From NCBI GenBank assembly GCA_018659585.1, contig JABJMC010000023.1, positions 5,416-69,415 on the forward strand: 64,000 nucleotides of DNA, in the 5' to 3' direction. This DNA comes from Candidatus Peregrinibacteria bacterium (lineage in GTDB: Bacteria > Patescibacteriota > Gracilibacteria > UBA1369 > UBA12473). Positions within the stretch are counted from its first letter, which is position 1; the number at the start of each line of letters is the position of its first letter. Positions 9,242 through 60,961 of this stretch are shown here, in pieces. The translations under genes were made by a program, and so were the position numbers. Under the pieces are notes generated by a model. That model ran no database searches. It was not told the origin of the DNA and saw only the letters and a program-made list of their open reading frames with translations.

Positions 9242-10660
9242 ATGACACTCAAAAAAAACACCAAGATTGTTTGTACGCTCGGACCAGCTTCGGATAATCG
9301 GGATATTATTGAAAAAATGTTAAACGCGGGCATGAATGTGGCGCGGCTTAATTTTTCGCATGGTTCGTATGAACATATGGAGAAAATTTGTCGTAATTTG
9401 CGAACCGCTAGTAAACGAACCAAGCACAAAGTAGCGATTATGCAGGATCTTCAAGGACCTAAAATTAGAGTGGGCCAACTTCCCGAAGAAGGAATTATTC
9501 TAAAAAGAGCCCAAAAAATAACACTTGTAACCGGGCGCAAAACTTACAAAAACAACCAAATCCCCGTCCCCTACAAAGACCTTCACAAAGACGTTAAAAA
9601 AGGTGATTGCCTTTTGTTAGATGATGGGTATTTAGAGGTTGAAGTGACACATAAATTAGGGCACGAAATAAATTGTCGCGTCAAAACTGGCGGAGTGCTA
9701 AAAAGCAACAAGGGAATTAATTGTCCCACCGCCACAATTCGGGCCAAAGCTATCACAACCAAAGACTTAAAAGATCTTGAGTTTGGGCTTACACAAGACA
9801 TTGATTATGTTTCACTTTCGTTTGTAAAGTCTGCGCAAGACATCCAGGCCTTACGGGCCGAGTTGGTCAAACGTGGCCATCCCGAGGTGCAAATAATTGC
9901 AAAAATTGAACGACACGAAGCTATCAAAAACCTCGACGGAATTATGAAAGAAGCAGACGGGATTATGGTGGCACGCGGTGACTTAGGTTTGGAGATTCCA
10001 GCCGAAAAAGTCCCCATCGCCCAGAAAGAAATCGTTCGTTTAGGTTTAATTCACGGAAAACCGGTAATCATTGCCACTCAAATCCTGGAATCAATGATAT
10101 CTAATCCGCGCGCCACTCGCGCCGAGGTTAGTGACGCCGCAACTGCTATTTTTGATCACGCCGATGCTTTTATGCTTTCTGGTGAAACCTCGGTTGGGAA
10201 ATATCCAATTCGGGCAGTTAGCACTCTAGCCAAAGTTGCTCACGCCGTAGAAAAAGAACTTCGCAAAAAAGAACACTTAATAAACCTCCCCCACAAAGAC
10301 GAAAATGTTTATGTTAGCGATGCTATCAGTTTAAGTGCCGCCTTACTGGCTGAAGACATAAAAGCCAAAGCCATTGTGGTCATCACCAAAACTGGTTACA
10401 CAGCTCGTCAAATCATGAAACACCGACCCACTATTCCGGTGGTAGCCATCACTTACGATCCCAAAATCGAATGCCAACTCAAACTTGTTTGGGGAATTAA
10501 CAAAGTGCACATCTCTAAAAAGCACATCACCACTGACATTATGGCCGATGAAATGGTCCCCAAAATCCTTTCCAAACTAGAAGTCGCCCAAAAAGGACAT
10601 GAAGTCGTCATTGTAAACGCCGGCCGCAACAACAACTTTATCTCGACGATTGTGCTATAA
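9242..10660 (+). CDS. pyk: pyruvate kinase
   Basis: 472 aa. TKIVCTLGPAS, MNVARLNFSHG, GIMVARGDLGLEIP and MLSGETSVGKYP motifs. Confidence 0.95.
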   Translation: MTLKKNTKIVCTLGPASDNRDIIEKMLNAGMNVARLNFSHGSYEHMEKICRNLRTASKRTKHKVAIMQDLQGPKIRVGQLPEEGIILKRAQKITLVTGRKTYKNNQIPVPYKDLHKDVKKGDCLLLDDGYLEVEVTHKLGHEINCRVKTGGVLKSNKGINCPTATIRAKAITTKDLKDLEFGLTQDIDYVSLSFVKSAQDIQALRAELVKRGHPEVQIIAKIERHEAIKNLDGIMKEADGIMVARGDLGLEIPAEKVPIAQKEIVRLGLIHGKPVIIATQILESMISNPRATRAEVSDAATAIFDHADAFMLSGETSVGKYPIRAVSTLAKVAHAVEKELRKKEHLINLPHKDENVYVSDAISLSAALLAEDIKAKAIVVITKTGYTARQIMKHRPTIPVVAITYDPKIECQLKLVWGINKVHISKKHITTDIMADEMVPKILSKLEVAQKGHEVVIVNAGRNNNFISTIVL

Positions 10661-12595: not shown

Positions 12596-13350
12596 CCATC
12601 TCAATTTATATCCTACTTTTCATTTTAGGAGTTCTCTTAGGCAGCTTCTTAAGCGTGCTAATTCATCGCCTCCACACCGGCGAAAAAGGCATTATTTTGG
12701 GTTCTTCTTTTTGTCCTAAATGTAATAAAAAGTTAAGTCCCCTCGAACTCATTCCCCTCATTAGTTATCTCCTCCAAAAAGGTAAATGTAAAAAATGCAA
12801 AAAACACATTGCTTGGCACTATCCCGTTCTGGAACTTTCCACCGGTTTACTTTTTGTAGTAATAGCCATGACCGGCTTCACACCTTTGCCAATTTATCTT
12901 GGCTTTACCCTAATTTTTGTTTTTATCTTTTTTTACGACCTTCTTTATCAAGAGATCCCAGACGAAATCATGCTCCCAGCCATTATTTTGGCTGCAGTTA
13001 GCACTCTTCATCCCGAAACCATTACTTTCTTAGACGGACTTTATGGAGCCCTTGCTCTCACTCTTTTTTTCCTAGCTCAAATTATTATTTCTCGTGGAAA
13101 ATGGATTGGTGGCGGAGACTTACGCATTGGTGCTTTTATGGGTTTTGTTTTAGGCCTTAAATTGACTATTCTAGCCTCCTTTTTTGGATATCTAGTAGGC
13201 GCTATAATTAGTGTCGGCCTCCTGATAACTGGCAAAGCTGACCGCAAAACCATGATTGCTTTTGGACCTTTCTTGATTATTGGGACTTTAATCGCTCTTT
13301 TTTACGGACAACAACTCGTTGACTGGTACTTAAATCTGATTGTGTTATGA
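12592..13350 (+). CDS. pilD: prepilin peptidase (A24 family)
   Basis: 252 aa. N-terminal Cys-box (CPKCNKKL...CKKCKK), multiple TM helices and the GGGDLRIGAFMG aspartyl motif. Confidence 0.85.
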   Translation: MTISIYILLFILGVLLGSFLSVLIHRLHTGEKGIILGSSFCPKCNKKLSPLELIPLISYLLQKGKCKKCKKHIAWHYPVLELSTGLLFVVIAMTGFTPLPIYLGFTLIFVFIFFYDLLYQEIPDEIMLPAIILAAVSTLHPETITFLDGLYGALALTLFFLAQIIISRGKWIGGGDLRIGAFMGFVLGLKLTILASFFGYLVGAIISVGLLITGKADRKTMIAFGPFLIIGTLIALFYGQQLVDWYLNLIVL

Positions 13351-14888
13351 AAACTAAAAACCCTGTAATGCTCGTAATTCTTGATGGTTTTGGTGAAGGC
13401 AAACCACGCGATCCCGGCAATGCTCCAGCCCGAGCAGACATGAAATTCTACAAATCTCTTTGCAAAAAATATCCCAAAACTCTCCTAAAAACCGACAGCC
13501 AAGCCGTGGGTCTTCCCAAAAAATCACAAGGCGGCTCCGAAGTTGGCCATTTCACCATGGGCTCCGGCCGCATCACCCGACAATCTCTAGAAGAAATCAA
13601 CCGCTCCATTAAAAAAAGCGACTTCTACAAACTCAAGCCTCTAAAGCAAGCTTGTAAACGAGACGTTCTCCATTTAGTTGGCATGATCTCGGACCAAGCT
13701 CTACACGCCAATATTCAACATTTATTTGCCTTACTCGAAACCGCTAAACGCCAAAAAACTAAAAAAATCTACATCCACGCCATTTTAGATGGTCGTGATG
13801 TCCCCGAGAAAAGTGCCTCCAAATATTTAAAAATGATTGATCGCCGTATAAAAAAACTCAAACTTCAAGGTGTTGCCGAGGTAGCCACCATGATCGGCCG
13901 TTATTATGCCATGGACCGCGACCAAAACTGGAAACGCACGGAAAAAGCCTACAACCTACTTGTTCTTGGTAAAGGAGAAAAAGCCAAAACCCCACTTCAA
14001 GGAATCAAAAACGCCTACGCTACCGACGTCCAAAGCGATTATTATGTGGAACCCATTATTTTAAATTCTAAAGCCACTATCAAATCCAAAGACGCCGTGG
14101 TTTTCTTTAACTACCGTACTGACCGCGCCCGCCAATTAACTTGGGCCCTAACAGGAGAAAAACCACCCAAAGACAGTGGCGTTAAAAAACTTGGTTTCAA
14201 ACCAAAAAAGCGAGTTCGTCCCTATTTTGTAGCCATGGGCCCTTACTCCGAAAAAGCACCTGTTTTATTCCCTACTCCACTTATCAAAAAAAATCTGGCT
14301 GAAATTTTGAGCACCAAAGGCTACCGCGAACTACGCATTGCTGAAACCGAAAAATACGCACACGTCACATTCTTTTTTAACTCCCAAATCGAAAAACCAT
14401 TCCCTGGGGAAGACCACATCCTAGTTCCTTCACCCAAATGCCCTTCTTACGCCGAAAAACCCGAAATGAGCGCCCGCAAAATAACCAAGCACCTAGTAAG
14501 CGCTCTCAAAAAAGAGGACCACGATGTAATTATTGTAAACTACGCCAACGGAGATTTAGTGGGACATTCTGGAGATTTAAAAGCAGCCATTGAATGCTGC
14601 CAAGTTCTCGATGAATGTCTAGAAAAAGTCATCCCCACCGCTCTTAAGCATGGCTACACCACCATCCTTACCTCTGATCATGGCAATTGCGATGAAATGC
14701 TTTATAAAAACGGGGAGCCCAAACCATCACACACCTTAAATCCTGTCCCTTGCCTCTTGATTTCCGATCAAAAATACCGCCTCAAGAAAAAGCGCGGTCT
14801 TCAAGATATTGCCCCTACTATTCTTGAACTTCTCAAAATCAAAAAACCCGCTATTATGACGGGTGAATCCTTAATCAAAAAATCTTAA
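13347..14888 (+). CDS. gpmI: 2,3-bisphosphoglycerate-independent phosphoglycerate mutase
   Basis: 513 aa. VMLVILDGFGEG start, ANGDLVGHSG and TSDHGNCDEM metal-site motifs. Confidence 0.9.
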   Translation: MKTKNPVMLVILDGFGEGKPRDPGNAPARADMKFYKSLCKKYPKTLLKTDSQAVGLPKKSQGGSEVGHFTMGSGRITRQSLEEINRSIKKSDFYKLKPLKQACKRDVLHLVGMISDQALHANIQHLFALLETAKRQKTKKIYIHAILDGRDVPEKSASKYLKMIDRRIKKLKLQGVAEVATMIGRYYAMDRDQNWKRTEKAYNLLVLGKGEKAKTPLQGIKNAYATDVQSDYYVEPIILNSKATIKSKDAVVFFNYRTDRARQLTWALTGEKPPKDSGVKKLGFKPKKRVRPYFVAMGPYSEKAPVLFPTPLIKKNLAEILSTKGYRELRIAETEKYAHVTFFFNSQIEKPFPGEDHILVPSPKCPSYAEKPEMSARKITKHLVSALKKEDHDVIIVNYANGDLVGHSGDLKAAIECCQVLDECLEKVIPTALKHGYTTILTSDHGNCDEMLYKNGEPKPSHTLNPVPCLLISDQKYRLKKKRGLQDIAPTILELLKIKKPAIMTGESLIKKS

Positions 14889-17888: not shown

Positions 17889-20800
17889 ATGAACAAACGT
17901 ACTATTACGCATCTTACCCTGATTGCGCTCGCTATCATTACCCTTGGGTTCTTTAATCTTCCCTACAACACCCAAACTAATATTCTTTCCTCTACTCCTG
18001 ACAGTTTTGAAACCCAAAAAATTCAACTTGGTCTCGATTTACAAGGAGGAACCCAACTTGATTACAAAGTAGATTTACGAAAAGTGGAAGATCGCGATCA
18101 AGAAGCAATTATCGAAGGAGTTTTAGAAGTCCTAACCCGTCGTGTTAATGGATTAGGAGTTTCCGAACCAAACATTTACCGCTCCGAAATTGCTGATGAA
18201 CAGCATATTATTATTGAATTAGCTGGGATCAAAGATATCGACGAAGCCAAAGCAATTGTTGGAAAAACTATTCAACTCGAATTTAAAGAAGAAGGTGGCA
18301 CCGCCATTACCACTGAAAATCGCGCTCAAGTTGAAGTTTCCGCTCAAAGTGCTCTAGACCGAATTTTAGCTGGCGAAGATTTTATGGCTATTGCCTCCGA
18401 AGAAGAACTAGCTAACCCTGGAGTAGCCTTTTACTTCCCCAGTGACGAAGAAGGTCATGTTTTAGAAAGTTATTTAGCTGATGGTTATGCCGAAGCTTTA
18501 GCCACCATGGAAGTTGGCGAAACTCACTCTGAACTTTTACAAACAAGTGATGGCTATACTTTTGATACTTACGGAAACTTAACAGAACTCGAAGGTTATT
18601 TCATTATTAGATTAATTGATGCTCGTGATGGCGAAAAAATCACTGGAGAAGACAAAGAGGTTGAAGCTCGTCATGTTCTAGTTGCGGCCGAAGACCGAGA
18701 ACTAGCCGAAGAACTCTTAGAACGCGCTCAAAACGGTGAATCTGTCGAAGATTTAGCCAAAGAATATTCAACTGAACCAGGTGCTAATTCCTCTGGTGGT
18801 TACCTTGGATTTTTTGGCCCTGGGGCCATGGTTAAACCATTCGAAGATGCAGCCTTTGCCATGGGAGTTGGTGATGTCTCTGCCAACCTTGTAGAAACCG
18901 AATTTGGGCTTCACATTATCGAAGTTATTGATATTAAAGAAGCTACTTCCGAAACCGTTATTGAAACTGAATACAAACTCGAAAAACTCTTTTACTCCAC
19001 CGCTCCAGACCCTTGGAGAGACACCAACTTAACTGGTGAACATTTCACGCACGCAGACGTTGCTTTTTCTCAAACTTACACTCCTTATGTAACCATTGAA
19101 TTCAATTCCGAAGGATCCAAATTATTTGAAGAAATCACCGAAAAAAATGTCGGCAAACGAGTTGCTATTTTTGTAGGTGGAGAACTTATTTCTGCTCCTA
19201 ATGTGAATGAAAAAATCACTGGTGGCCGAGCTCAAATCTCTGGTGATTTTACCGTAGAAGAAGCCTCTGAATTAGCCCGTGATTTAAACACTGGTGCTAT
19301 ACCCGCTCCAATTATTCTTGTTGGTCAATACACCATTGGGGCCTCACTTGGACAAAGCGCCCTAGATACTAGTTTAAAAGCTGGTTTAATTGGTCTTATC
19401 ATCCTCGTGCTCTACATGATGCTCTACTACCGCCTCCCCGGTCTCTTAGCTAATATTGCGCTTTCTCTTTATGCAATTTTGCTTATTTTCTGCATCAAAG
19501 TCGCTATGCCACTAGTCTTGTCTTTAACTATCTCTCTGATTGTTTTCTCGACACTAGTAGTGTTAATTATGCGCAACAAAGATTCGGGCTGGGAAAAACT
19601 CCTATCTTTTATGCTGGCCTGTTTTGTGCTGTTTTTCTTAACCTACCTTCTATCTAGCGCCGTAGTACTTACGCTTGCTGGTGTGGCTGGTGTGGTTCTA
19701 TCCATTGGAATGGCAGTTGATGCCAACATTCTTATTTTTGAACGAATGCGTGAAGAATTACACAATGGCCGCCCTTTATCTGGCGCTATTGAAGTTGGAT
19801 TTGATCGCGCTTGGAGTTCTATTCGTGATTCAAACTTCTCCTCTCTTATTACTTGTGCGATTTTGATTTATTTTGGAACTTCAATTATTCGAGGATTCGC
19901 GGTTAACTTGGCGCTTGGTATTTTGATCTCTATGTTCACAGCCATTATTATTACGCGAACTTTACTTAGAGCTTTAGTAAAAACTAAACTTGGCAAAAGT
20001 GATTTCTTACTTGGCACTCCCAAGAAATCTCACCCTCGTCTCCCAATTATAAAAGCACGCAAAATTTGGTTTGGTCTTTCTGGAGCTTTAATTATTGCTT
20101 CTTTAATTGCTATCCCATTAAACGGTCTTAATTTTGGTTTAGATTTTACAGGAGGAACACTACTCGAAATTCAATTTAACGAAACCGTCCCAACTTCAGA
20201 TGAAGTTTCAACCAAAATCACTGAAATCGAAGAAAATCTCTTAGTCGTAGAAGACACTGTATCTACTGTTACTGAAGAACTCGAAGAAGAAGTCTCAACC
20301 ATCGAGGATGCTCCACAAGCAATCCTGATGGAAGAAAGTAGCTTAATCGCTCTAGAGGAAGATCAAGAAATCCCCGTAGACTTTGGCGAACCCGTCATAG
20401 TTTCAACCAGTGAAACCAGCTACATGATTCGAATGAAGCACATTTCTAATGAATCGCACGAAGCTATCATTGCCACTTTCACTGATTCCTTTGGAGAAGT
20501 CGAAGAAACTCGCTTTAACACCATCGGTCCCACTATCGGAGCCACTATGAAAACCAAAGCAGTCATGGCTCTTGGTTTAGCCTTAATAATGATTGTTTTC
20601 TACATTGCCTTTGCCTTCCGCAGCATTCCCAAACATACCAGCCCATGGCGCTTTGGTTTAACAGCCATTGCCGCTCTTGTGCATGATGTACTTATTACCC
20701 TTGGAGTGTTTGTTGTCTTAGGAAGCGTTCTCGGCGTAGAAATTGATGCTTTATTTGTGACTGCTCTTCTAACTATTATGGGATTCTCGGTTCATGATAC

Positions 20801-22233: not shown

Positions 22234-22309
22234 GCGCCAGTAGCTCAGTGGATAGAGCACTGGTCTTCGGAACCAGGTGTCGGGGGTTCGAATCCCTCCT
22301 GGCGCACCA
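22234..22309 (+). tRNA. tRNA-Arg (anticodon UCG), with CCA encoded
   Basis: Hand-folded cloverleaf. Acceptor GCGCCAG/CTGGCGC, D-arm GCTC-AGTGGATA-GAGC, anticodon arm CTGGT-CTTCGGA-ACCAG (anticodon TCG), 5-nt variable loop, T-arm GGGGG-TTCGAAT-CCCTC, discriminator A, CCA at 22307-22309. Confidence 0.92.
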
Positions 22310-53176: not shown

Positions 53177-56100
53177 ATGGTACTGCTCAAACCAAAAATC
53201 AAATTAAAGTCCATTGTGGCTATCGTCACCTTATTAACTCTCGCTGCTTCTTCTCTATCTTTTGCAGTTGGACGCGGTGGTGGCGGTGATAGCGTTAGTC
53301 AATATTCCAGCATTAACTCTGGAGAAACATCAACTGAAATCGACCCCATTGATTCTTCACCGAATTACGAAGAAATCACAGATACAAGTTGTGCCACAAC
53401 CTATCACACTCATGAGCACTATTTTTACGCTAATAACAGTGCAGATTATGATTATTGGCTAGCAATTCACGGATTTGCCATTGTTTTAGATTATGATTAC
53501 GACACCAACGACAATCCAGCGGAAAACGACTTTTTGAGCAATGTCGATACTTCCAGCTTGCGTTGTACAGTTGGTTCAGATTACACCGATTGTCCTTTTG
53601 ATGTGGAAACTGATTTAGGAACAGAAATTGCCTCTGGCAGTGATTTTTATGGCACCACTGTCACCTATCAAGAACTAGACTTTTTACCTGGAAACCCACG
53701 TGGTTTACTCTGGGAATATGGAACTGACGACTATACAAATCTAAGTGACGGACCAGCCTGGTTACACGGACGAGACTACATGTGGGAAGACGTCCCTATG
53801 ATTAATGAAAGTATTTCTTTTGGCCTTACTGAATACACCGAAGACTTTACGGCTACTACTACTTCTTACACCTTAGTAGAACCAATTTATATTGACCCTG
53901 CTGACGATTATTCAGACTGGAGCAATTACCACCACTTCTACACCGACGAATCCGACCCAGATGGCGATGGTGTGGTCGAAGCTGACCCAGATGGTGACTA
54001 CATTTACTGGTGGGGAATGAATGGTATTGGACGCTCCATTTTCACTGATTGTGTAGATGCTTGTTCCGACCTAGAAATCACCTCCCCTACCGAAATAACC
54101 GCTGATGATACTGAGGGTGTCACTGCCCTAGAAATCTACGCTACTGACGATAACGACACTCCTGGTGAATGGGATGGAACCTATAACTATAGTAGTGATG
54201 GAACTTGTGAGTTTACTACTAATAGTATCTATGCTGCCCTTGGCTTTGGTTCAACAGAACTCGAAACTGATGACACCAGCGTTTATGTCCACAGTTGTAC
54301 TCCTGGTGACACTATTTCTATTACAGAAATTGATTACCCGGTAGATTGTGCAGCCTCACTCGAAATTGGAGATGCTTGTTCGGAATTAGAAATTACTGAA
54401 CCTCCAACTACTATTACAGCCTCGGCCATGGATGATGGACATGTGGTTTTGGGTATCGAATCTGGCGCTGTTAGTGGTGATGCTTGGGCTGGTGAATATG
54501 AATTTTCTGCCCTAGCTGAAGATGGCAGCCTATCTACTGGGCGCTTTCATTCAAATTATACAACTGGTTTAGCTGGTGCTGGGACTAACCCTTACACTAC
54601 TACTAATCAAACTGTTCACTATTTTGATGGGGCCCCAGGCGACAGCATTCAAGTAACAGAAACTGAATACCCAGTTGCTTGTTACGATGAAATTGATTCC
54701 GAAGGACTTTATTGTTCACGCCTACGTATCTCCCCCATGGCTTTTACTTATGAAGAAGCCAGCACTCTAGTAACTATGGATGTTCGAGCTTGGGACCAGT
54801 TAGATGACGCCTGGCCCACTACTTATACCATCGAAGGTGATGCTACTTGTAAATTCACCGAAGACATTACCGATGTCGCAACTGATAACGGCTCATCTTC
54901 ACTCATTTCTTCTGCTAACACCATTTACATTTACGGTTGTAGTTCCGAAGAAACAATTACTGTTATAGATTCTGAATATCCTGTTGCTTGTAATGCCGAA
55001 GCCCAAATTTTAGCCGAAGACCTACTTTGTCGCGAAATGACTGGAACCCCAGAAACCATTACTTACGAAGAAAGTCTTAGTGTTATGGAACTTCATTATG
55101 ATGCTTTTGATCAAAATAGTGATGACTGGGAAAACGGAGACTATACCCTTTCTAGTGATGGCACTTGTCTCTTTACTGAAACAGCTGATGACGCTGCTAA
55201 TGGCAGTGGCGTTGCTACCCTTTCTACAACTGAAACTACCGCCTTTGTTTACGGCTGTACTGGTGGAGAAACTATTCATATTGAAGAAGATTCCTACCCG
55301 GATGATTGTTTCTTTGAAATCCCTGTAGATGCACAAGTTTTAGCTTGTACTTCTATGGAGTCAGTGCCTACCTCTCTAACTTACGAAGAAGTTCAAGCTA
55401 TCGCCGAAGTTCACTACGACACCTATGACCAAAATGGTGGTGATTGGGAAAGTCTTTACGAAGTTTACAGCGACCTTGGCACTTGTTTATATACCGAAAC
55501 TTTAGAAGAAGCCGAAGCTGGCAATGGACAAGATTCTCTTGATTCTATTTCGGCTACTACGGTTTATGTTTACGGCTGTGAGGCCGGCGACATTATGCGC
55601 GTCGAAGAAATCTACTCCGCCTATGATTGTTACGTTGAAATCCCAATTAGTGATGAAATTCTTTATTGTGCGGCTCTTTCTACTACACCAACTTCTTTCA
55701 CTTACGAAGAAAGTCTCGAAATTCAAGAAGTTGTAATCACATCTAGCAACCAAAACAGCGGCATTTGGGATGGTAATTATGAAATCACTTCTACTAATGG
55801 AACTTGTCTTTTTGCGGGCACGCTCGAAGATGCTGAATCTGGAGCCGTGGCTACTGCTGACTTAAGCATTATCGAAGAAATTTTCTATGTTGTTAGCTGT
55901 GACGCTGGCGACACAATTATTATCGAGGAAGTTGATTATTATGATGTTTGTAACGCCGAAATTCCAATTGGAGTTGAAGGTCTTTATTGTGCCGATCTCT
56001 CCACTACACCAACTGCTTTCACCTATGCCGAAACTGCCGAAATTCAAGAAGTTGTAATCACAGCTGGCGATCAAAACAACGCTGTTTGGGATGGTAGTTA

Positions 56101-59020
56101 TAGTATTTGGAGTAGCGGTGAAGCTTGTTTATTAACCGAAACTCTCGAAGAAGCCGAAGCTGGTGGTGGTACAATTTCACTCGAAACAGAATCTGAAATT
56201 TTTTATGTTTATAACTGTAACCAAGACGGCGGAGGCGATAACATTTATGTTTTTGAACAAGCTTATCCCGATGTTTGTCTAGCAACAATTACCACCGAAG
56301 CCCTAGGCCCTTACTGTGGCGATGGCACTCAAGACTCTGGTGAAGAATGTGATGATGGTAATAATATTGATGGCGATGGCTGTTCCGCTACTTGTACACT
56401 TGAAGTAGCGCCATACTGTGGTGATGGCACTTTGGATTCTAATGAAGAATGTGATGATGGCAATAACATTGATGGTGATGGCTGTTCCTCTACTTGTACA
56501 CTTGAAGTAGCCCCTTACTGTGGCGATGGCACCATGGATTCCGATGAAGAATGTGATGATGGCAATAATCTTGATGGTGATGGTTGTGACGCGGATTGTA
56601 CAATCCCGGCTTGTATTAGCTTATTAATCTCCCCTACTACTACTGCTAATACGACTGAAACTTTTACTATCACTCCTGACCCAACTGATTGGGCCGGACC
56701 TTGGACTTGGACTACTACCAACCCCGAAGGTCTATTCTTTAGCGATGCTACTCCAGACGCTAGTTACAATGAAATTATAGTTGAAGTAACCGAAGTAACT
56801 TACGAAGGTGGCGAAAACGACACTATCTCGGTTTACGAAGCCGGCAGTTACGCTGATGTTTGTAGTGCCTCGGCTAAAATTGATGCCACAACTCCATATT
56901 GTGGTGACGGCATAAAACAAACAGAACTTGGCGAAGAATGTGATGAAGGAGCTAATAACGGGGTTTTCGGCAGTGGATGTTCCATTAGTTGTCAAGAAGT
57001 CCCTGGTGGAGGAAGCACTCCTGATCCTACCCCCACTCCTGGAGGAGGCAGCTCTGGTGCTTGTACTTACCTTAAAATTTTCTCTCCTGAAGATTTTTGG
57101 GAAGGTGAGAATGAATATTTCTATTCCACTGGCGAAACCTTTACTTTCACTGATTTAGAGGTTGGCGATACTATTATCATTAACTTAGAAGCCCTAGACG
57201 GGATCCTTTATGACACTGATTGGAAGGGAGTCTCTGGATCTTATAGTTATGACTATAACTGGGATTACACTGGTGTTACCGAAGTTGAAATCATTAACGG
57301 CCCCGAACAAGAAGATGAAGACAACACTGCCTACGCTGAATTTACCGTTACTGATCCTGAAGCTGTTTCTATTGAAGTTATGGTCGATACAAACACTGAC
57401 TGTTCTGTTACTTTCATCCAAGAAGAAGTGGTCGAAGAACCAACTCCCGCTGAACATGATGATGGTTTAACTAAGAGTGCTTTTACTTATAATTTTGGGT
57501 GGTTTTATGCTGATGGAGGTCAAGTTGATGAATCAGAAAAAACTACCTCTAGCAGCGGTTATGGTTTTACTGGCACCGAAACTTTCGCACATGACTTTGA
57601 TTATGTTTTCTACACTCTTACTTATGACCTTTCCAGCAATCTTAATGCTTACGAAGAAGGTGACATTTTGACTATTACTGACACTATTTCTGATGATGAC
57701 GGAACCGTGGGAATTGGAGGTGTAATTGCTGACCCACATGTTAATGACACTTATGGTTGGGATAACGGAGAAATTAATTTCTATACCCCCGGCAGCGAAC
57801 CAGATGATCCAGCCGTAGTAACTAATTGGACTAATGGACAACCATTCCGGGTTTACTATTCCTCTGATGAAAGCGACATTGATGCATGTGATGGTTTTAT
57901 TACTGATACTTGTTATAGCGGCAGTGTCACTTCTGGATTAATTTTTGAAAATCTTGACGAAGCTCCAGCTGCTTACGGTGACATCGTCATTCAATATGTT
58001 GGTCGTGTTTCTAACGGAGGCTTCGATTGTGCAGCAATGGCCGCTGATCCCGAAGTTTCTTGTCCTGTTCAATATTTAGAAAACACCGCTACCGCTGATA
58101 ACGGCACCGAAACCCACACCGCCAGCGCCGACATTACTATTACTTGTCCATATTTACTCACTCAAAACGCTGGAGATATTTATTACGAAGATGATATCGA
58201 AACCTTTGATATCTCCTGCTACCAAAATTACAAGAGTAGTGACTCTGTGGCATTAACTGCTGATGATTCTTTATTAGCTCGACTTTCTAGTTACATTCTT
58301 TATCAAACTAAAGAACTTGTAAATGAACTAACTGATGTTTGGAACCGTATTAAAACTACGGACAATGATCAAATCGCTAACTTTGAGGCTGTTAGTCAAA
58401 ACACTACCAGCATCACTACTAGTCTGAATAAAACCCTCTACACAAACACTGAATATACTTACGAAGATACTTCCGAATATTACATTACTATTGATGATTT
58501 TGAATCTAACTTGAGTACTTTATATCAAACAAATCCTAAACAAAACGTTTATCGCGTTAGTGACGCTGATCTGATTTTTGATCTTGGCGCACACGCTATC
58601 CCAGGAGAAGCCTATACTTTTATTGTAGAAGGAGGCCATGACTTAATATTCAAGAGCAATCTTAATTACACAGACACTTTTGACACTAGTGATTTGGATA
58701 GCGTGCCATCCATTGCCTTTATCGTAACTGGTGGCGGCGATGTCTACATTCACGATGAAGTAACCGAAATTGTTGGTGTTTACTACATTGACGGTGGTGG
58801 TGTGATGACTGGTGAATGGACTGATCCATTTACTACCCTTACTATTTACGGTTCTGTTTACGGAAATATTAATAGTTTGCTTGGCCAACGTACTTTTGCT
58901 GGTCCAGCTAACTACAGTCACGGTAATGTCGTGCTTCGCTATGACGAACGAATTTTCCTAAACACTCCTCCGGGATTAGAGGAATATATAGATGTCACCT
59001 CAGAAAGAACTGTTCACTAA
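53177..59020 (+). CDS. giant secreted repeat protein (1947 aa) with a novel 4-Cys repeat array and myxo-type Cys-rich repeats
   Basis: N-terminal signal/anchor ([20 protein letters not shown]). Seven repeats of about 107 aa, each with four conserved Cys. Three tandem plus one isolated [22 protein letters not shown] repeats. The gene starts 27 nt after the previous giant gene. Confidence 0.85.
54050..56308 (+). repeat. seven tandem in-frame repeats of about 107 aa (321 nt period) with four conserved cysteines
   Basis: Consensus: L-x-C-x-x-L-x-x-x-P-x-x-(I/F)-T-Y-E-E...W-x-G-x-Y...(D/N)-G-T-C-x-F-T-E...(I/V)-Y-V-Y-G-C...E-x-x-Y-P-x-x-C. Units 6 and 7 start at 55661 and 55982 (exactly 321 nt apart) and share identical runs such as gaaattcaagaagttgtaatcaca. 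Confidence 0.75.
56309..56611 (+). repeat. three tandem 102-nt (34-aa) Cys-rich repeats (Myxococcus-type cysteine-rich repeat / DUF4215-like)
   Basis: The units start at 56309, 56411 and 56513. Each encodes [17 protein letters not shown](I/L)DGDGC...C and they are highly similar at the DNA level. Confidence 0.8.
56894..56992 (+). repeat. fourth, diverged copy of the Cys-rich repeat
   Basis: [33 protein letters not shown]. Confidence 0.65.
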
Positions 59021-59035
59021 CAGGTGGGAGGGAAG

Positions 59036-59190
59036 ACTTAAGGTTAACAAAAAAGAGTTGTTTTTCGCAACGAATCAATTATCGGAGCGGAGCGGGCTTG
59101 GTGTTGCGAAGCAACCCGCGACGCGAGATCATAGGTCGCGTTCGCCGCTGGAGCGAACGACGACCGATGGTGAGTGCGAAAAGCCGACTC
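59036..59190 (+). ncRNA. candidate structured RNA of unknown class (or an unusually elaborate terminator region)
   Basis: A 13-bp Watson-Crick helix pairs 59036-59048 with 59177-59189 and stacks on an 8-bp helix (59052-59059 with 59165-59172). Next comes a 5-bp helix (59071-59075 with 59154-59158). These enclose hairpins GTTGC-GAA-GCAAC (59093-59105) and GTTCGC-CGCTGGA-GCGAAC (59130-59148), plus CGCGAC/GTCGCG (59107-59112 with 59125-59130). The core 59071-59176 is 68/106 G+C by my count, against AT-rich flanks. The strand is assigned from the 3' T-tract and G-U pairs and is uncertain. Confidence 0.45.
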
Positions 59191-59247
59191 TTTTTTGTTG
59201 AATACTCGGAATCTTTCCTTCCATCTGTTTTGTGGTACACTTCGGGC

Positions 59248-60222
59248 ATGAGCAACATAGTCCTCTTATTCGGCGAAGACCAATTTGGCATCCACGAAAA
59301 ATTAGACTTCTGGAAAGCCAAATTTATCGAAAAATATGAAGGAGATATCAACTTAGACGAGTTCGAAGGAAATACGCCCCCCAACCAGATTATCGAAGCC
59401 GCGGAATCAGTCCCCTTTTTAGGAGAAAAACGTTTAATTGTTGTTAAAGACTTTTTAAAAACTCAAGACGCTGATAGTCAAAAAAAGATGGTGGATTTAT
59501 TAAATAAAGTTCCAGAATTCACGACTTTAGTTTTCTTAGAATTAACTCCCCCAGATCGTCGAAAATCTCTATTCAAAAAACTACAAAAACAAGCTCGTTT
59601 AGAAGAATGCAAATCTTTAATTGGCAATGACTTAACCGAATGGATTATCAGTCGAGTCAAAGCTTTAAACAGTGAAATCGAATGGGGTCCAGCCACTTAT
59701 TTAGGCAGCCTTATTGGAAATGACTCCTGGCGCCTAAAAAACGAAATCGAAAAACTAGCCACTCATACGCAAGGAAAAGCCATTACCCGCGAAACAATTG
59801 ATAAAATGGTTAGTGGGAGCGCCAACACCACGGTTTTCAAACTTACAGATTCCCTTGGCCAACGGCGCGCCGAAGAAGCCATTAATTTATTCCACACTCT
59901 CGTCGAAAAAGGCGAAGCCATTCCCATGATTTTCTCCATGCTAGTACGTCAATTTAGAATGATTATTCAGATTAAAGAACTACAATCCCAAGGCATGGCC
60001 CACGCTCAAATTGCCTCTAAAATCAAACAACATCCTTACGCCGTTACCTCCATGGCTAGCCAAACTGCAAATTTCTCCGAAAAAGAATTAGAAATCATTT
60101 ACCACAAACTCCTCCAAATCGATCGCGGCCTAAAAACCGGCGAATTTCGTTACCAGGTCTCGGACCAACGTGAATTCATGCTCCAGATAGAAAAGTTTAT
60201 CTTGGAGTGTTGTGCTAAATAA
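59248..60222 (+). CDS. holA: DNA polymerase III delta subunit
   Basis: About 324 aa from MSNIVLLFGEDQFG. Delta-like pattern (FLGEKRLIVVKD, helical C-terminal domain). The first 50 codons of track ORF 59098..60222 translate the GC-rich structured element and are rejected. Confidence 0.7.
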   Translation: MSNIVLLFGEDQFGIHEKLDFWKAKFIEKYEGDINLDEFEGNTPPNQIIEAAESVPFLGEKRLIVVKDFLKTQDADSQKKMVDLLNKVPEFTTLVFLELTPPDRRKSLFKKLQKQARLEECKSLIGNDLTEWIISRVKALNSEIEWGPATYLGSLIGNDSWRLKNEIEKLATHTQGKAITRETIDKMVSGSANTTVFKLTDSLGQRRAEEAINLFHTLVEKGEAIPMIFSMLVRQFRMIIQIKELQSQGMAHAQIASKIKQHPYAVTSMASQTANFSEKELEIIYHKLLQIDRGLKTGEFRYQVSDQREFMLQIEKFILECCAK

Positions 60223-60234
60223 AACCCTAAAACA

Positions 60235-60263
60235 TTGACAAAACAACAACTCTATTTTAAGGT
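60235..60263 (+). promoter_or_regulatory. candidate promoter for the GNAT-like gene
   Basis: TTGACA (60235-60240), a 17-nt spacer, then TAAGGT (60258-60263). Confidence 0.35.
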
Positions 60264-60289
60264 ACTTCCCAAAAACTAATTAATTCACT

Positions 60290-60961
60290 GTGCCGAGTCT
60301 AAGCACTCATCCTGCTGGATCCACCCCCATACCAGAAATTCATCCTCTAAATGGGATGATGTATCAACGTTTTGGTTTGATTTTTGATGTTAAACGAGCG
60401 AATAAAAATGGTCTAGAATATATTACAAATGTCCACACTCCCGACGGACAAAAAGTCGGTTTTTTTTGTTTCCGAATCTCTAACCCCACTTCTGATCAAC
60501 CCCAAACTGTATTCATGGGAATACTAGTAACTCCTGAATTTCGAGGACGAGGAATTTCTAATATTTTTATGAACGAAATTTCTCAACTAAGCCAACTTAT
60601 GGGCATTCCCTTTAATCAAACATCTAAGCAATTTAAACCCTTAATGTGTGCCCTCCTTACTAAGCATGGTTTTACACCAGCAAATAAACCAAACAGCTGT
60701 CACGCCGCTATAGTCGGAAAATCAGATGGACCCACCGCCCCTGTATTTTTTGGGCATAAAAAAGGAGAAGCCCATTTTAGAAGATCAAAACTATATACTC
60801 GCGCTACAAATTATGAAATCGTAGATTCTATCGAAGATATTCGAGATGGGATAGATGTTATATTAGGATCCCGCTATCTTCTAACAGATCGCGCCAAAAT
60901 GCGCGCCAAACTAAAACAAACCTCTGCTTGGGATCCCACTCTTAAACCGACTACAGCGTAG
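60290..60961 (+). CDS. hypothetical protein with a GNAT-like acetyltransferase motif
   Basis: The segment ILVTPEFRGRGISNIFMNEI resembles GNAT motif A (V.P..RG.GI). The start is uncertain (GTG at 60290, or ATG at 60353/60356). The 3' end overlaps convergent gatA by 11 nt. Confidence 0.45.
   Translation: MPSLSTHPAGSTPIPEIHPLNGMMYQRFGLIFDVKRANKNGLEYITNVHTPDGQKVGFFCFRISNPTSDQPQTVFMGILVTPEFRGRGISNIFMNEISQLSQLMGIPFNQTSKQFKPLMCALLTKHGFTPANKPNSCHAAIVGKSDGPTAPVFFGHKKGEAHFRRSKLYTRATNYEIVDSIEDIRDGIDVILGSRYLLTDRAKMRAKLKQTSAWDPTLKPTTA

What the first reader, a model, noticed from the sequence alone, without database searches (positions are those of the whole stretch)
59036..59190. GC-rich multi-helix element between the giant gene and holA: candidate novel structured RNA
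Sixteen nt after the giant gene's stop, the sequence becomes strongly GC-rich: 68/106 G+C across 59071-59176 in an AT-leaning genome. A nearly continuous long-range helix of about 24 bp can close it: 59036-59048 with 59177-59189, then G59050-C59174 and T59051-G59173, then 59052-59059 with 59165-59172. A further 5-bp helix (59071-59075 with 59154-59158) follows, along with two or three internal hairpins. These include a GCGAAGC-type triloop hairpin (59093-59105) and GTTCGC-N7-GCGAAC (59130-59148). The 3' strand ends in T6, so part of the element may also work as an intrinsic terminator (GAGTGC-GAAAA-GC..ACTC-TTTTTT). The only ORFs here are a spurious 5' extension of holA and short overlapping frames. 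I could not match it to tRNA, tmRNA, RNase P, SRP or 6S RNA, or to the common riboswitch or ribozyme cores I know. About 155 nt with a multiway junction and a long closing stem is more than a simple terminator needs.
Basis: seen in the sequence. Interest (0 to 1): 0.65.

Follow-up and report, generated by a model that had tools for sequence, protein, structure and literature searches.

The report
Species-specific branched hairpin before holA
The GC-rich folded element between the giant gene and holA is real, but it occurs in only one species of marine Peribacteria, so it is most likely a fast-evolving hairpin insert at the end of the giant gene's transcript rather than a conserved new RNA gene.

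Summary
It is also larger than described: the whole spacer 59021-59227 folds into one branched rod. That rod scores -102 kcal/mol on the + strand and -79.5 on the - strand, and the 171-nt core has z = -6.1. It is the strongest folding outlier in the 64-kb window.

No Rfam family or tRNA matches it. No second copy turned up in the window, in 1.2 Mb of related loci, or in plasmid, phage and viral collections.

The organism is a marine Peribacteria (CPR). Giant gene to holA synteny is conserved, but the spacer is only 9-62 nt in most relatives. The sister species carries an unrelated-sequence 170-nt rod at the same site. That rod has a homologue at a different locus in another relative, with 39 pairs and 11 compensatory changes. 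A third species keeps only half of it.

The window's element fits neither that rod's covariance model nor a model of attC-like sites found in a relative. All three rods favour the + strand (25 G·U pairs against 3 A·C mismatches).

Best reading: a lineage-specific hairpin insert acting in cis at the giant gene's 3' end, as terminator or insulator ahead of the leaderless holA promoter. Its mobility and function are untested. Interest is modest.

The parts
53177..59020 (+). Giant gene (1947 aa). Its stop codon TAA is at 59018-59020 and the element begins at the next base.
   Evidence: ORF list. The C-terminal tail is conserved in L001, L004 and L002.
59021..59036 (+). Outer 5' arm CAGGTGGGAGGGAAGA (purine-rich). 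It pairs with 59212-59227.
   Evidence: MFE of the whole spacer. Homologous purine-rich arms occur in L001, L002 and L031.
59044..59069 (+). 5' strand of the long closing helix (TTAACAAAAAAGAGTTGTTTTTCGCA).
   Evidence: The 13-bp perfect core is read directly.
59071..59084 (+). Weak 3-bp hairpin (CGA...TCG) in the junction.
   Evidence: sequence.
59087..59124 (+). Hairpin H2: GCG-GA-GCGGG...CCCGC-GA-CGC, with a tandem GA/GA internal loop. The apical GTTGC-GAA-GCAAC hairpin (59103-59115) is an alternative tip.
   Evidence: A weak, non-significant local match to the apex of the L001-type model (4.6 bits).
59128..59171 (+). Hairpin H3: ATCAT-A-GGTCGCGTTCGC...GCGAACGACGACC-G-ATGGT. This is the most GC-rich part.
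59175..59201 (+). 3' strand of the closing helix (TGCGAAAAG-C-CGACTCTTTTTTGTTGA), with one bulged C (59184). It contains the T6 run at 59191-59196.
59212..59227 (+). Outer 3' arm TCTTTCCTTCCATCTG (pyrimidine-rich). It overlaps the -35 region of the holA promoter and is conserved in relatives.
59233..59241 (+). Extended -10 box TGGTACACT, 6 nt before the holA ATG. This implies a leaderless holA mRNA that starts downstream of the element.
   Evidence: Sequence. The same TGnTAnAnT box sits 6-8 nt before the ATG in L001, L004, L002, L028 and L031. Inference, not a mapped start site.
59248..60222 (+). holA (DNA polymerase III delta, 324 aa).
   Evidence: Pfam PF06144 and PF21694.
59098..59247 (+). 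Spurious in-frame TTG extension of holA through the element. Some public annotations call it as a 373-aa product.
   Evidence: Homologues start at MSNIVLLFGEDQF.

Best explanation
The element is a species-specific, non-coding, GC-rich branched hairpin that fills the whole spacer between the giant gene's stop codon and the holA promoter.

Shown: in this small clade of marine Peribacteria, this site carries long rod-like hairpins that turn over quickly. The outer arms are shared by descent. The interior differs between sister species, and it has been half-deleted or reduced to a short hairpin in others.

Inferred: the + strand is the one that folds. It would be transcribed as the 3' tail of the giant-gene mRNA. 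The holA -10 box lies downstream of the element, 6 nt before the ATG, so the element is not part of the holA message. There it most likely acts in cis as a transcript-end structure. A 26-bp closing helix runs straight into U6, which would stop or pause RNA polymerase, protect the 3' end, or offer a long double-stranded target for RNase III. That would shield the closely abutting leaderless holA promoter from read-through.

It is not a conserved trans-acting RNA gene.
For: - Real, exceptional fold: z -6.1, top outlier of the window.
- The whole spacer pairs into one rod.
- Strand asymmetry: -102.1 (+) against -79.5 (-) kcal/mol here, -89.0 against -65.7 in L001, -100.7 against -69.2 in L031. 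Together the three rods have 25 G·U pairs against 3 A·C mismatches.
- A stem directly followed by T6, at the 3' end of a gene on the same strand.
- An extended -10 box 6 nt before the holA ATG is kept in relatives with or without an element. The same leaderless layout occurs at many first genes of operons in the window.
- Synteny is conserved but spacer length varies: 9, 29, 60-62, 110, 200 and 227 nt.
- The outer arms align with L001 but the interior does not.
- L002 keeps only the outer-arm hairpin, and L004/L119 keep only a 3' half.
- No transposase, integrase or reverse transcriptase is encoded in the window.
Against: - No transcript data, so transcription, 3' ends and termination are all inferred.
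- The terminator scan did not call it, because the 'loop' is a 106-nt branched domain.
- Most relatives manage without any such structure, so it is dispensable.
- The related L031 rod lies between divergent genes. It cannot be a 3' tail of an upstream gene there, so a terminator role cannot be general for such rods.
- Four-fold degenerate sites between the window and L001 are near saturation (identity 0.49). Lack of interior similarity therefore does not distinguish replacement from plain divergence.
- G·U excess could also come from strand-biased C-to-T mutation, or from folding as single-stranded DNA.
Confidence: 0.45

Rival explanations
1. It is a selfish, non-autonomous palindromic mobile element. 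It could be MITE/REP/ERIC-like, or a hairpin element moved as single-stranded DNA. It landed in this spacer and has no host function.
For: - The neighbouring L001-type rod has a homologue at a different locus in L031: 70% identity over 90 nt, E 8e-5, with 39 conserved pairs.
- The site shows presence/absence, a truncated copy (L004 = L119) and a contig that breaks inside the element (L037).
- The ends look like terminal inverted repeats.
- GC content (64% in the core) is foreign to a 41% GC genome.
Against: - No second copy of the window's sequence was found in the window, in 1.2 Mb of related loci, or in plasmids, phages and viral contigs.
- No target-site duplication at either possible boundary.
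- No transposase or integrase in 64 kb.
- The outer arms are shared with relatives by descent, not newly inserted.
- The rest of the genome could not be searched.
Confidence: 0.2
2. It is an independent small RNA gene, a new trans-acting structured RNA.
For: - Strong strand-specific fold and GC-rich island in an AT-leaning genome.
- No Rfam match, so it would be new.
- A tandem GA/GA internal loop flanked by G-C pairs is shared with the L001-type rods, which do show covariation.
Against: - Found in one species only; absent or replaced in all relatives.
- No recognisable promoter upstream; it starts at the base after a stop codon.
- It does not match the L001-type model (best 6 bits).
- L004 lost half of its rod without replacement.
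Confidence: 0.12
3. It is an integron attC-like recombination site, a single attC without an integrase.
For: - The closing helix is bounded by GGTTAAC (59042-59048) and GTTGAAT (59197-59203), which resemble the attC boxes RYYYAAC and GTTRRRY. On the - strand they read ATTCAAC and GTTAACC.
- Branched tips occur in long attC sites.
- A relative (L031) carries an integron-like island with attC-like sites next to holA.
Against: - One box always has a mismatch.
- There is no unpaired central spacer between the R and L boxes.
- A covariance model of the four L031 sites gives no hit spanning the element, even with filters off.
- No integrase and no cassette array in the window.
- A 5.8-kb giant gene is not a cassette.
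Confidence: 0.05
4. It is a cis-regulatory leader (riboswitch-like) that controls holA.
For: - It sits immediately upstream of holA.
- A local hairpin GAGTGCGAAAAGCCGACTC followed by T6 could compete with the long closing helix.
Against: - The conserved extended -10 box lies downstream of the element, 6 nt from the ATG.
- Relatives express holA with a 9-62 nt spacer.
- A 26-bp closing helix is too stable to switch.
- No riboswitch family matches.
Confidence: 0.05

Closest known systems
Intrinsic (Rho-independent) terminators, including bidirectional ones with an A-tract and a U-tract
   Same: It lies at the 3' end of a gene on the same strand. A stem is followed at once by U6, and an upstream A6 pairs with it. 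Both strands end in CTCTTTTTTGTT.
   Different: The stem encloses a 106-nt branched, GC-rich domain instead of a 3-8 nt loop. The whole structure is about 210 nt. It is not called by a simple terminator scan.
Transcribed intergenic palindromic repeats of bacteria (REP/BIME, ERIC/IRU, Correia, BOX, RUP; MITE-like elements). Comparison from general knowledge.
   Same: It is a 100-200 nt imperfect palindrome between genes, co-oriented with them. It is variably present among close relatives and expected to fold in mRNA and affect its ends or stability.
   Different: No second copy, target duplication or partner transposase was found here. Only the neighbouring L001-type rod is known at two loci, and those are in two different genomes.
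Integron attC sites
   Same: It is an imperfect palindrome with AAC...GTT-type ends. One strand folds better, and it has a branched variable tip.
   Different: It lacks the unpaired central spacer. It fails a model of attC-like sites from a relative. There is no integrase or cassette array nearby.
L001-type rod of sister Peribacteria
   Same: It occupies the same spacer and has homologous outer arms. The same strand is preferred. It has a tandem GA/GA loop below an apical hairpin with a CGAAG-type loop, and it abuts a leaderless promoter.
   Different: There is no significant sequence or model match in the interior. The window's element is branched, with two side-by-side hairpins, whereas L001 and L031 are single rods.
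RNase III processing hairpins between cistrons (general knowledge, e.g. phage T7 and lambda)
   Same: It has more than 20 bp of near-continuous double-stranded RNA between two genes.
   Different: No cleavage data exist, and whether this organism has RNase III was not checked.

Membership tests
Any Rfam 15 family (tRNA, tmRNA, 6S, SRP, RNase P, riboswitches, ribozymes) | Match to the family covariance model at or above the gathering score | tested here: not met
   Gathering scan of the window found only tRNA-Arg at 22234. A permissive scan of 58900-59350 gave only a 19.6-bit chance hit against a 52.5-bit threshold. ARAGORN found nothing here.
Intrinsic terminator | G+C-containing stem immediately followed by a U-run, at the 3' end of a gene on the same strand | tested here: inconclusive
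   Stem ...GAG/CUC followed by T6 at 59191-59196, 171 nt after the stop codon. The consensus scan calls nothing because the loop is over 8 nt.
Intrinsic terminator | Transcripts end at the U-run | not testable with these tools
   No transcriptome data are available.
MITE / REP-like repeat | Terminal inverted repeats | tested here: met
   A 26-bp closing helix with a 13-bp perfect core, plus 16-bp outer arms.
MITE / REP-like repeat | Several copies in one genome | tested here: not met
   No other copy in the 64-kb window, in about 6 kb of extra flank (L023), or in 1.2 Mb of related loci. The rest of the genome could not be reached.
MITE / REP-like repeat | Target-site duplication flanking the repeats | tested here: not met
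   No direct repeat at either boundary, 59044/59201 or 59021/59227.
L001-type rod (model R1, built here) | Significant match to the 111-position, 39-pair covariance model | tested here: not met
   With filters off, the best hits in 58500-59800 score 6 bits or less. The local 4.6-bit match of 59085-59126 has E 2.2 in 1.3 kb.
Integron attC site | R'' RYYYAAC and R' GTTRRRY boxes at the ends | tested here: inconclusive
   GGTTAAC and GTTGAAT on the + strand; ATTCAAC and GTTAACC on the - strand. There is one mismatch in either orientation.
Integron attC site | Unpaired central spacer between the R and L boxes, and a match to an attC model | tested here: not met
   The helix is continuous from the AAC/GTT ends. 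Model R2 of the L031 attC-like sites gives no hit spanning the element. IntegronFinder's own model was not available.
Integron attC site | Integron integrase or cassette array nearby | tested here: not met
   Pfam scan of 35 window proteins shows only housekeeping genes.
6S RNA | Rod of about 180 nt with a large central bubble | tested here: not met
   No Rfam 6S hit. The fold is a multi-branch junction with no central bubble.
5' leader / riboswitch of holA | Lies within the 5' untranslated region of the regulated gene | tested here: not met
   The conserved extended -10 box 59233-59241 lies downstream of the element, 6 nt before the ATG. This is inferred from sequence, not from a mapped start.

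The most novel reading that the evidence does not exclude
The window's element and the L001-type rods could belong to one new class of strand-specific, rod-shaped RNA elements of marine Peribacteria. On this reading they relocate between intergenic sites just upstream of leaderless promoters. Their purine-rich 5' arm (GGGAGGGAAG) would pair with the CCUCC-type pyrimidine motif that this lineage places in front of start codons instead of a Shine-Dalgarno sequence. They would then act as regulators or decoys of gene expression rather than passive hairpins.
Probability: 0.1. Interest if true: 0.65.

Novelty: new member of a known kind. Interest (0 to 1): 0.33.

Why it matters
The element alone matters little. 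It is a dispensable, single-species structure at a gene's 3' end.

The comparison gave three things of wider use:
1. Gene callers extend holA by 49 codons through the element in public data, and this should be corrected.
2. This clade of CPR bacteria, usually thought to have streamlined genomes with few repeats, carries long strand-specific hairpin elements. These turn over at fixed intergenic sites, and one type shows clear compensatory evolution across two loci.
3. The same genomes appear to lack Shine-Dalgarno sequences. They use leaderless starts plus a CCTCC-type upstream motif. One relative carries an integron-like island.

Each of these can be tested with existing marine metagenomes and metatranscriptomes.

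Tried and rejected
- Rfam at gathering and permissive thresholds, for the window, L001 and L031: nothing.
- tRNA/tmRNA scan: nothing at the element.
- Repeat search in the window: the element is unique.
- Sensitive BLASTN of the element against all held loci (0.37 Mb, then 1.2 Mb): only self hits.
- Plasmid and phage collections, distant mode: no match.
- Viral contigs: two exact window patterns gave 0 hits. A 19-mer of the L001 type gave 4 chance hits in phage coding sequence. The degenerate L001-type pattern gave 0 hits.
- Metagenome scan with a 43-nt degenerate L001-type pattern: 0 hits.
- Second metagenome scan with a holA profile: 80 loci, but the closest is only 57% identical, so the close clade is not in that collection. 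Model R1 found nothing in those 870 kb.
- Searching translated frames of the element for ORFs called over other copies:
  - The six-frame concatenate hit the candidate cap.
  - The single + frame found 2 candidates and none scored. Even the known 373-aa extended holA calls were not returned, so this test is unreliable.
  - The - frame against 1.84 billion representatives gave one hit with 28% identity over five matched stretches in a 3107-aa protein; I judged it spurious without inspecting the protein.
- Walking the genome from the first window ORF failed because there is no exact product on record.
- Considered and dropped:
  - DGR target hairpin: no template repeat or reverse transcriptase, and the C-terminus of the giant protein is conserved.
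  - Retron: no reverse transcriptase downstream.
  - 6S and SRP RNA: no model hit and the wrong architecture.
  - Small ORF: the open frames are not conserved in L001.
- Literature searches on Peregrinibacteria noncoding RNA and CPR MITEs found nothing relevant.

Full report
**1. The observation**

The region was read directly.
- The perfect 13-bp helix is 59046-59058 with 59187-59199.
- TTTTCGCA/TGCGAAAA is 59062-59069 with 59175-59182.
- ATCGG/CCGAT is 59081-59085 with 59164-59168.
- GTTGCGAAGCAAC is 59103-59115.
- GTTCGC-N7-GCGAAC is 59140-59158.
- T6 is 59191-59196.

Folding 59030-59200 as RNA gives -75.1 kcal/mol, against -50.6 +/- 4.0 for dinucleotide shuffles (z -6.1). The reverse strand gives -64.4. 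A 160-nt sliding fold of the whole window, corrected for GC, puts this segment first by a wide margin (z -5.3, next -3.5).

Folding the entire spacer shows that the outer arms 59021-59036 (CAGGTGGGAGGGAAGA) and 59212-59227 (TCTTTCCTTCCATCTG) also pair. The element is therefore a 207-nt rod. It has a 26-bp closing helix, a weak 3-bp hairpin and two GC-rich hairpins (59087-59124 and 59128-59171). Its energy is -102.1 kcal/mol on the + strand and -79.5 on the - strand.

**2. What it is not**

- Rfam 15 finds only a tRNA-Arg elsewhere in the window. A permissive scan of the region returns one chance hit far below threshold.
- ARAGORN finds nothing here.
- The element is unique in the window.
- The window encodes ordinary housekeeping genes, including tgt, ruvA, ruvC, pyk, glmS, priA, pyrG, rpoD, dnaG, truB and tpiA. 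There is no transposase, integrase or reverse transcriptase.
- holA (PF06144, PF21694) starts at ATG 59248. The TTG-59098 extension, called as a 373-aa product in some public records, is not shared by homologues.

**3. Relatives at the same locus**

holA places the window in marine Peribacteria/Peregrinibacteria. The giant gene to holA arrangement is conserved, but the spacer is not:

| Lineage | holA identity | Spacer |
|---|---|---|
| L123/L124 | 57% | 9 nt |
| L028 | 67% | 29 nt |
| L002, L027, P0005 contig | 74% | 60-62 nt |
| L031 | 66% | extra 93-aa ORF present |
| L004 = L119 | 79% | 110 nt |
| L001 = L038 = L120 = L121 | 89% | 200 nt |
| window | 100% | 227 nt |

The window's spacer DNA is identical in the four contigs fetched. 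holA sits on 20 contigs, and all cluster members that extend into the element show the same peptide.

L001's spacer is also a long hairpin (-86.5 kcal/mol, z -10). Its interior shows no significant similarity to the window's (local alignment score at the shuffle mean). Only the outer arms and the promoter-proximal flank align.

Four-fold degenerate sites between the two species are close to saturation (identity 0.49). This alone cannot separate replacement from divergence. However, L001 and L004 are even more diverged (0.41) and still share 78% identity over 54 nt of the rod's 3' half. The window's interior therefore stands apart.

Other states of the site:
- L004 keeps only that 3' half and does not fold. 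An independent assembly confirms this.
- L002 keeps only an 11-bp hairpin made of the outer arms.
- L037 is a contig that begins inside a further variant of the L001-type rod.

**4. A rod family at two loci**

BLASTN of the L001 rod against all held loci found a homologue in L031 at a different place, between gatC and a 97-aa ORF (70% over 90 nt, E 8e-5). That spacer is 38 nt in the window and 290 nt in L031. It folds as a 220-nt rod: -100.7 kcal/mol and z -10.3 on the + strand, -69.2 on the - strand.

The L001 and L031 cores align with 39 pairs. All 78 cells are paired, and 11 pairs changed on both sides. Controls with the partner slid by 1-3 columns give 0-1 such pairs and about 40% pairing.

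A covariance model of this core (R1) recovers only its own training sequences among the close relatives, and nothing in 870 kb of distant relatives. With filters off it scores the window's element at 6 bits or less.

The only hint of kinship is local. The window's hairpin 59087-59124 and the L001-type apex both have G-C stems around a tandem GA/GA loop, with a CGAAG-type tip. That match is 4.6 bits and is not significant.

**5. Strand preference**

All three rods fold 22-31 kcal/mol better on the strand of the downstream gene. Together they have 25 G·U pairs against 3 A·C single mismatches (binomial p about 1e-5). The count comes from + strand MFE structures, so it leans that way.

This fits selection on a single-stranded + strand, as RNA or as DNA. 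Strand-biased C-to-T mutation is an alternative I cannot exclude.

**6. Context of the 3' end**

An extended -10 box (TGGTACACT, 59233-59241) lies 6 nt before the holA ATG. The same TGnTAnAnT box sits at the same distance in relatives with or without a rod.

About a third of the genes in the window show a TAnnnT box 5-10 nt before the start. None of the 40 genes has a GGAGG-type Shine-Dalgarno sequence. holA is therefore probably leaderless, and the element is upstream of its transcript.

In the window and in L001 the rod would be transcribed only as the tail of the giant-gene message, unless it has its own promoter, which I could not find. The closing helix runs straight into U6, which is the geometry of an intrinsic terminator, although the enclosed domain is far larger than usual and the simple scan does not call it. 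In L031 the rod lies between divergent genes, so a 3'-tail role cannot be general.

**7. The attC idea**

A folding scan of the relatives' loci turned up, in L031, an island between holA and gatA. It holds a tyrosine recombinase whose best NCBIfam hit is integron integrase (TIGR02249, 222 bits, below the 265 cutoff). Five small ORFs follow. Four sites of imperfect palindromes of about 130-150 nt lie after or between them; one is split around the third ORF. These have RYYYAAC/GTTRRRY-type ends and fold better on the bottom strand.

The window's closing helix is bounded by GGTTAAC and GTTGAAT, so I built a model of those four sites (R2). It gives no hit spanning the element, with or without filters. 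The element also lacks the unpaired central spacer. This reading is unlikely.

**8. Searches for other copies**

No match was found in plasmids, phages or viral contigs. The metagenome collection does not contain the close clade: the best holA match is 57%, and the L001-type pattern gave 0 hits. It could not test copy number.

Attempts to detect copies through ORFs called over them were uninformative, and one failed its own positive control. Whether the window's sequence recurs elsewhere in its own genome remains open.

**9. Verdict**

The structure is real and strand-specific. It is confined to one species and sits at a site where related species carry other rods, half a rod, a stub or nothing.

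The best-supported reading (about 0.45) is a lineage-specific hairpin insert acting in cis at the end of the giant-gene transcript, as a terminator or insulator in front of the leaderless holA promoter.

| Rival reading | Confidence |
|---|---|
| Selfish palindromic mobile element | 0.20 |
| Independent small RNA gene | 0.12 |
| attC-like site | 0.05 |
| holA leader | 0.05 |

It is a new member of a known kind of element. Interest is modest. The L001-type rod, the integron-like island and the unusual start-codon contexts are the more promising leads.

Noticed in passing
L001 3804-3978 (= L038, L120, L121); L031 17870-18088; partial copies at L004 3899-3965 (= L119) and L037 1-45: This is a family of about 170-220 nt rod-shaped hairpins in marine Peribacteria. 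It occurs at two different loci: giant gene to holA, and gatC to a 97-aa ORF. The core has 39 conserved pairs with 11 compensatory changes, tandem GA/GA loops and a strong + strand preference. It matches no Rfam family, and model R1 finds it only in the close clade.
   Followed up: partly
L031 10973-16060: This is an integron-like island between holA and gatA in a CPR genome. The tyrosine recombinase's best hit is integron integrase TIGR02249 (222 bits, below cutoff). Five small ORFs follow (Pribosyltran, DUF2000, AdoMet_dc, DUF4037, unknown), with four attC-like palindromes ending in RYYYAAC/GTTRRRY boxes. One ORF (13255-13611) lies between the two halves of one such site.
   Followed up: partly
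window, upstream of 40 start codons (e.g. 9242, 11150, 12592, 21111, 31692, 33339, 43431): No gene has a GGAGG-type Shine-Dalgarno sequence within 20 nt of its start. Nine of 40 have the opposite pyrimidine motif (CCTCC, CCCTCC or CCTTCC) 5-15 nt upstream, against a 2.8% background (p about 1e-6). About a third have a TAnnnT box 5-10 nt upstream, which suggests leaderless mRNAs. The outer 3' arm of the element (CTTTCCTTCC, 59213-59222) is the same kind of motif.
   Followed up: partly
window 60290-60961; L123 10982-11929; L031 10973-16058: The holA to gatA junction is variable among relatives. The window has an extra 223-aa weakly GNAT-like ORF, L123 has an EamA transporter, and L031 has the integron-like island. 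L001, L004, L027 and L028 have nothing there.
   Followed up: no
window 59098-59247: Public gene calls (P0001 and P0047 at 373 aa, P0046 at 351 aa) extend holA upstream through the hairpin. All three reading frames on the + strand and two on the - strand are largely open across the GC-rich core.
   Followed up: yes
L037 1-130: This contig starts inside a rod. Its promoter and first holA codons are identical to L002, but the rest of holA is L001-like. It is either a natural recombinant or a chimeric assembly at the hairpin.
   Followed up: no
L042 11560-11920 (also L043 about 19000-19320 and L082 about 10360-10600): This is a tandem array of a 21-nt GT-rich unit (GGTTCAGGTTGTARGCTT...) in more distant relatives. 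It gives extreme one-strand folding energy and is probably the antisense of a repetitive coding region.
   Followed up: no
window 60236-60264: A sigma-70-like TTGACA-17-TAAGGT promoter lies in the 67-nt spacer after holA, ahead of the GTG-start 223-aa ORF.
   Followed up: no
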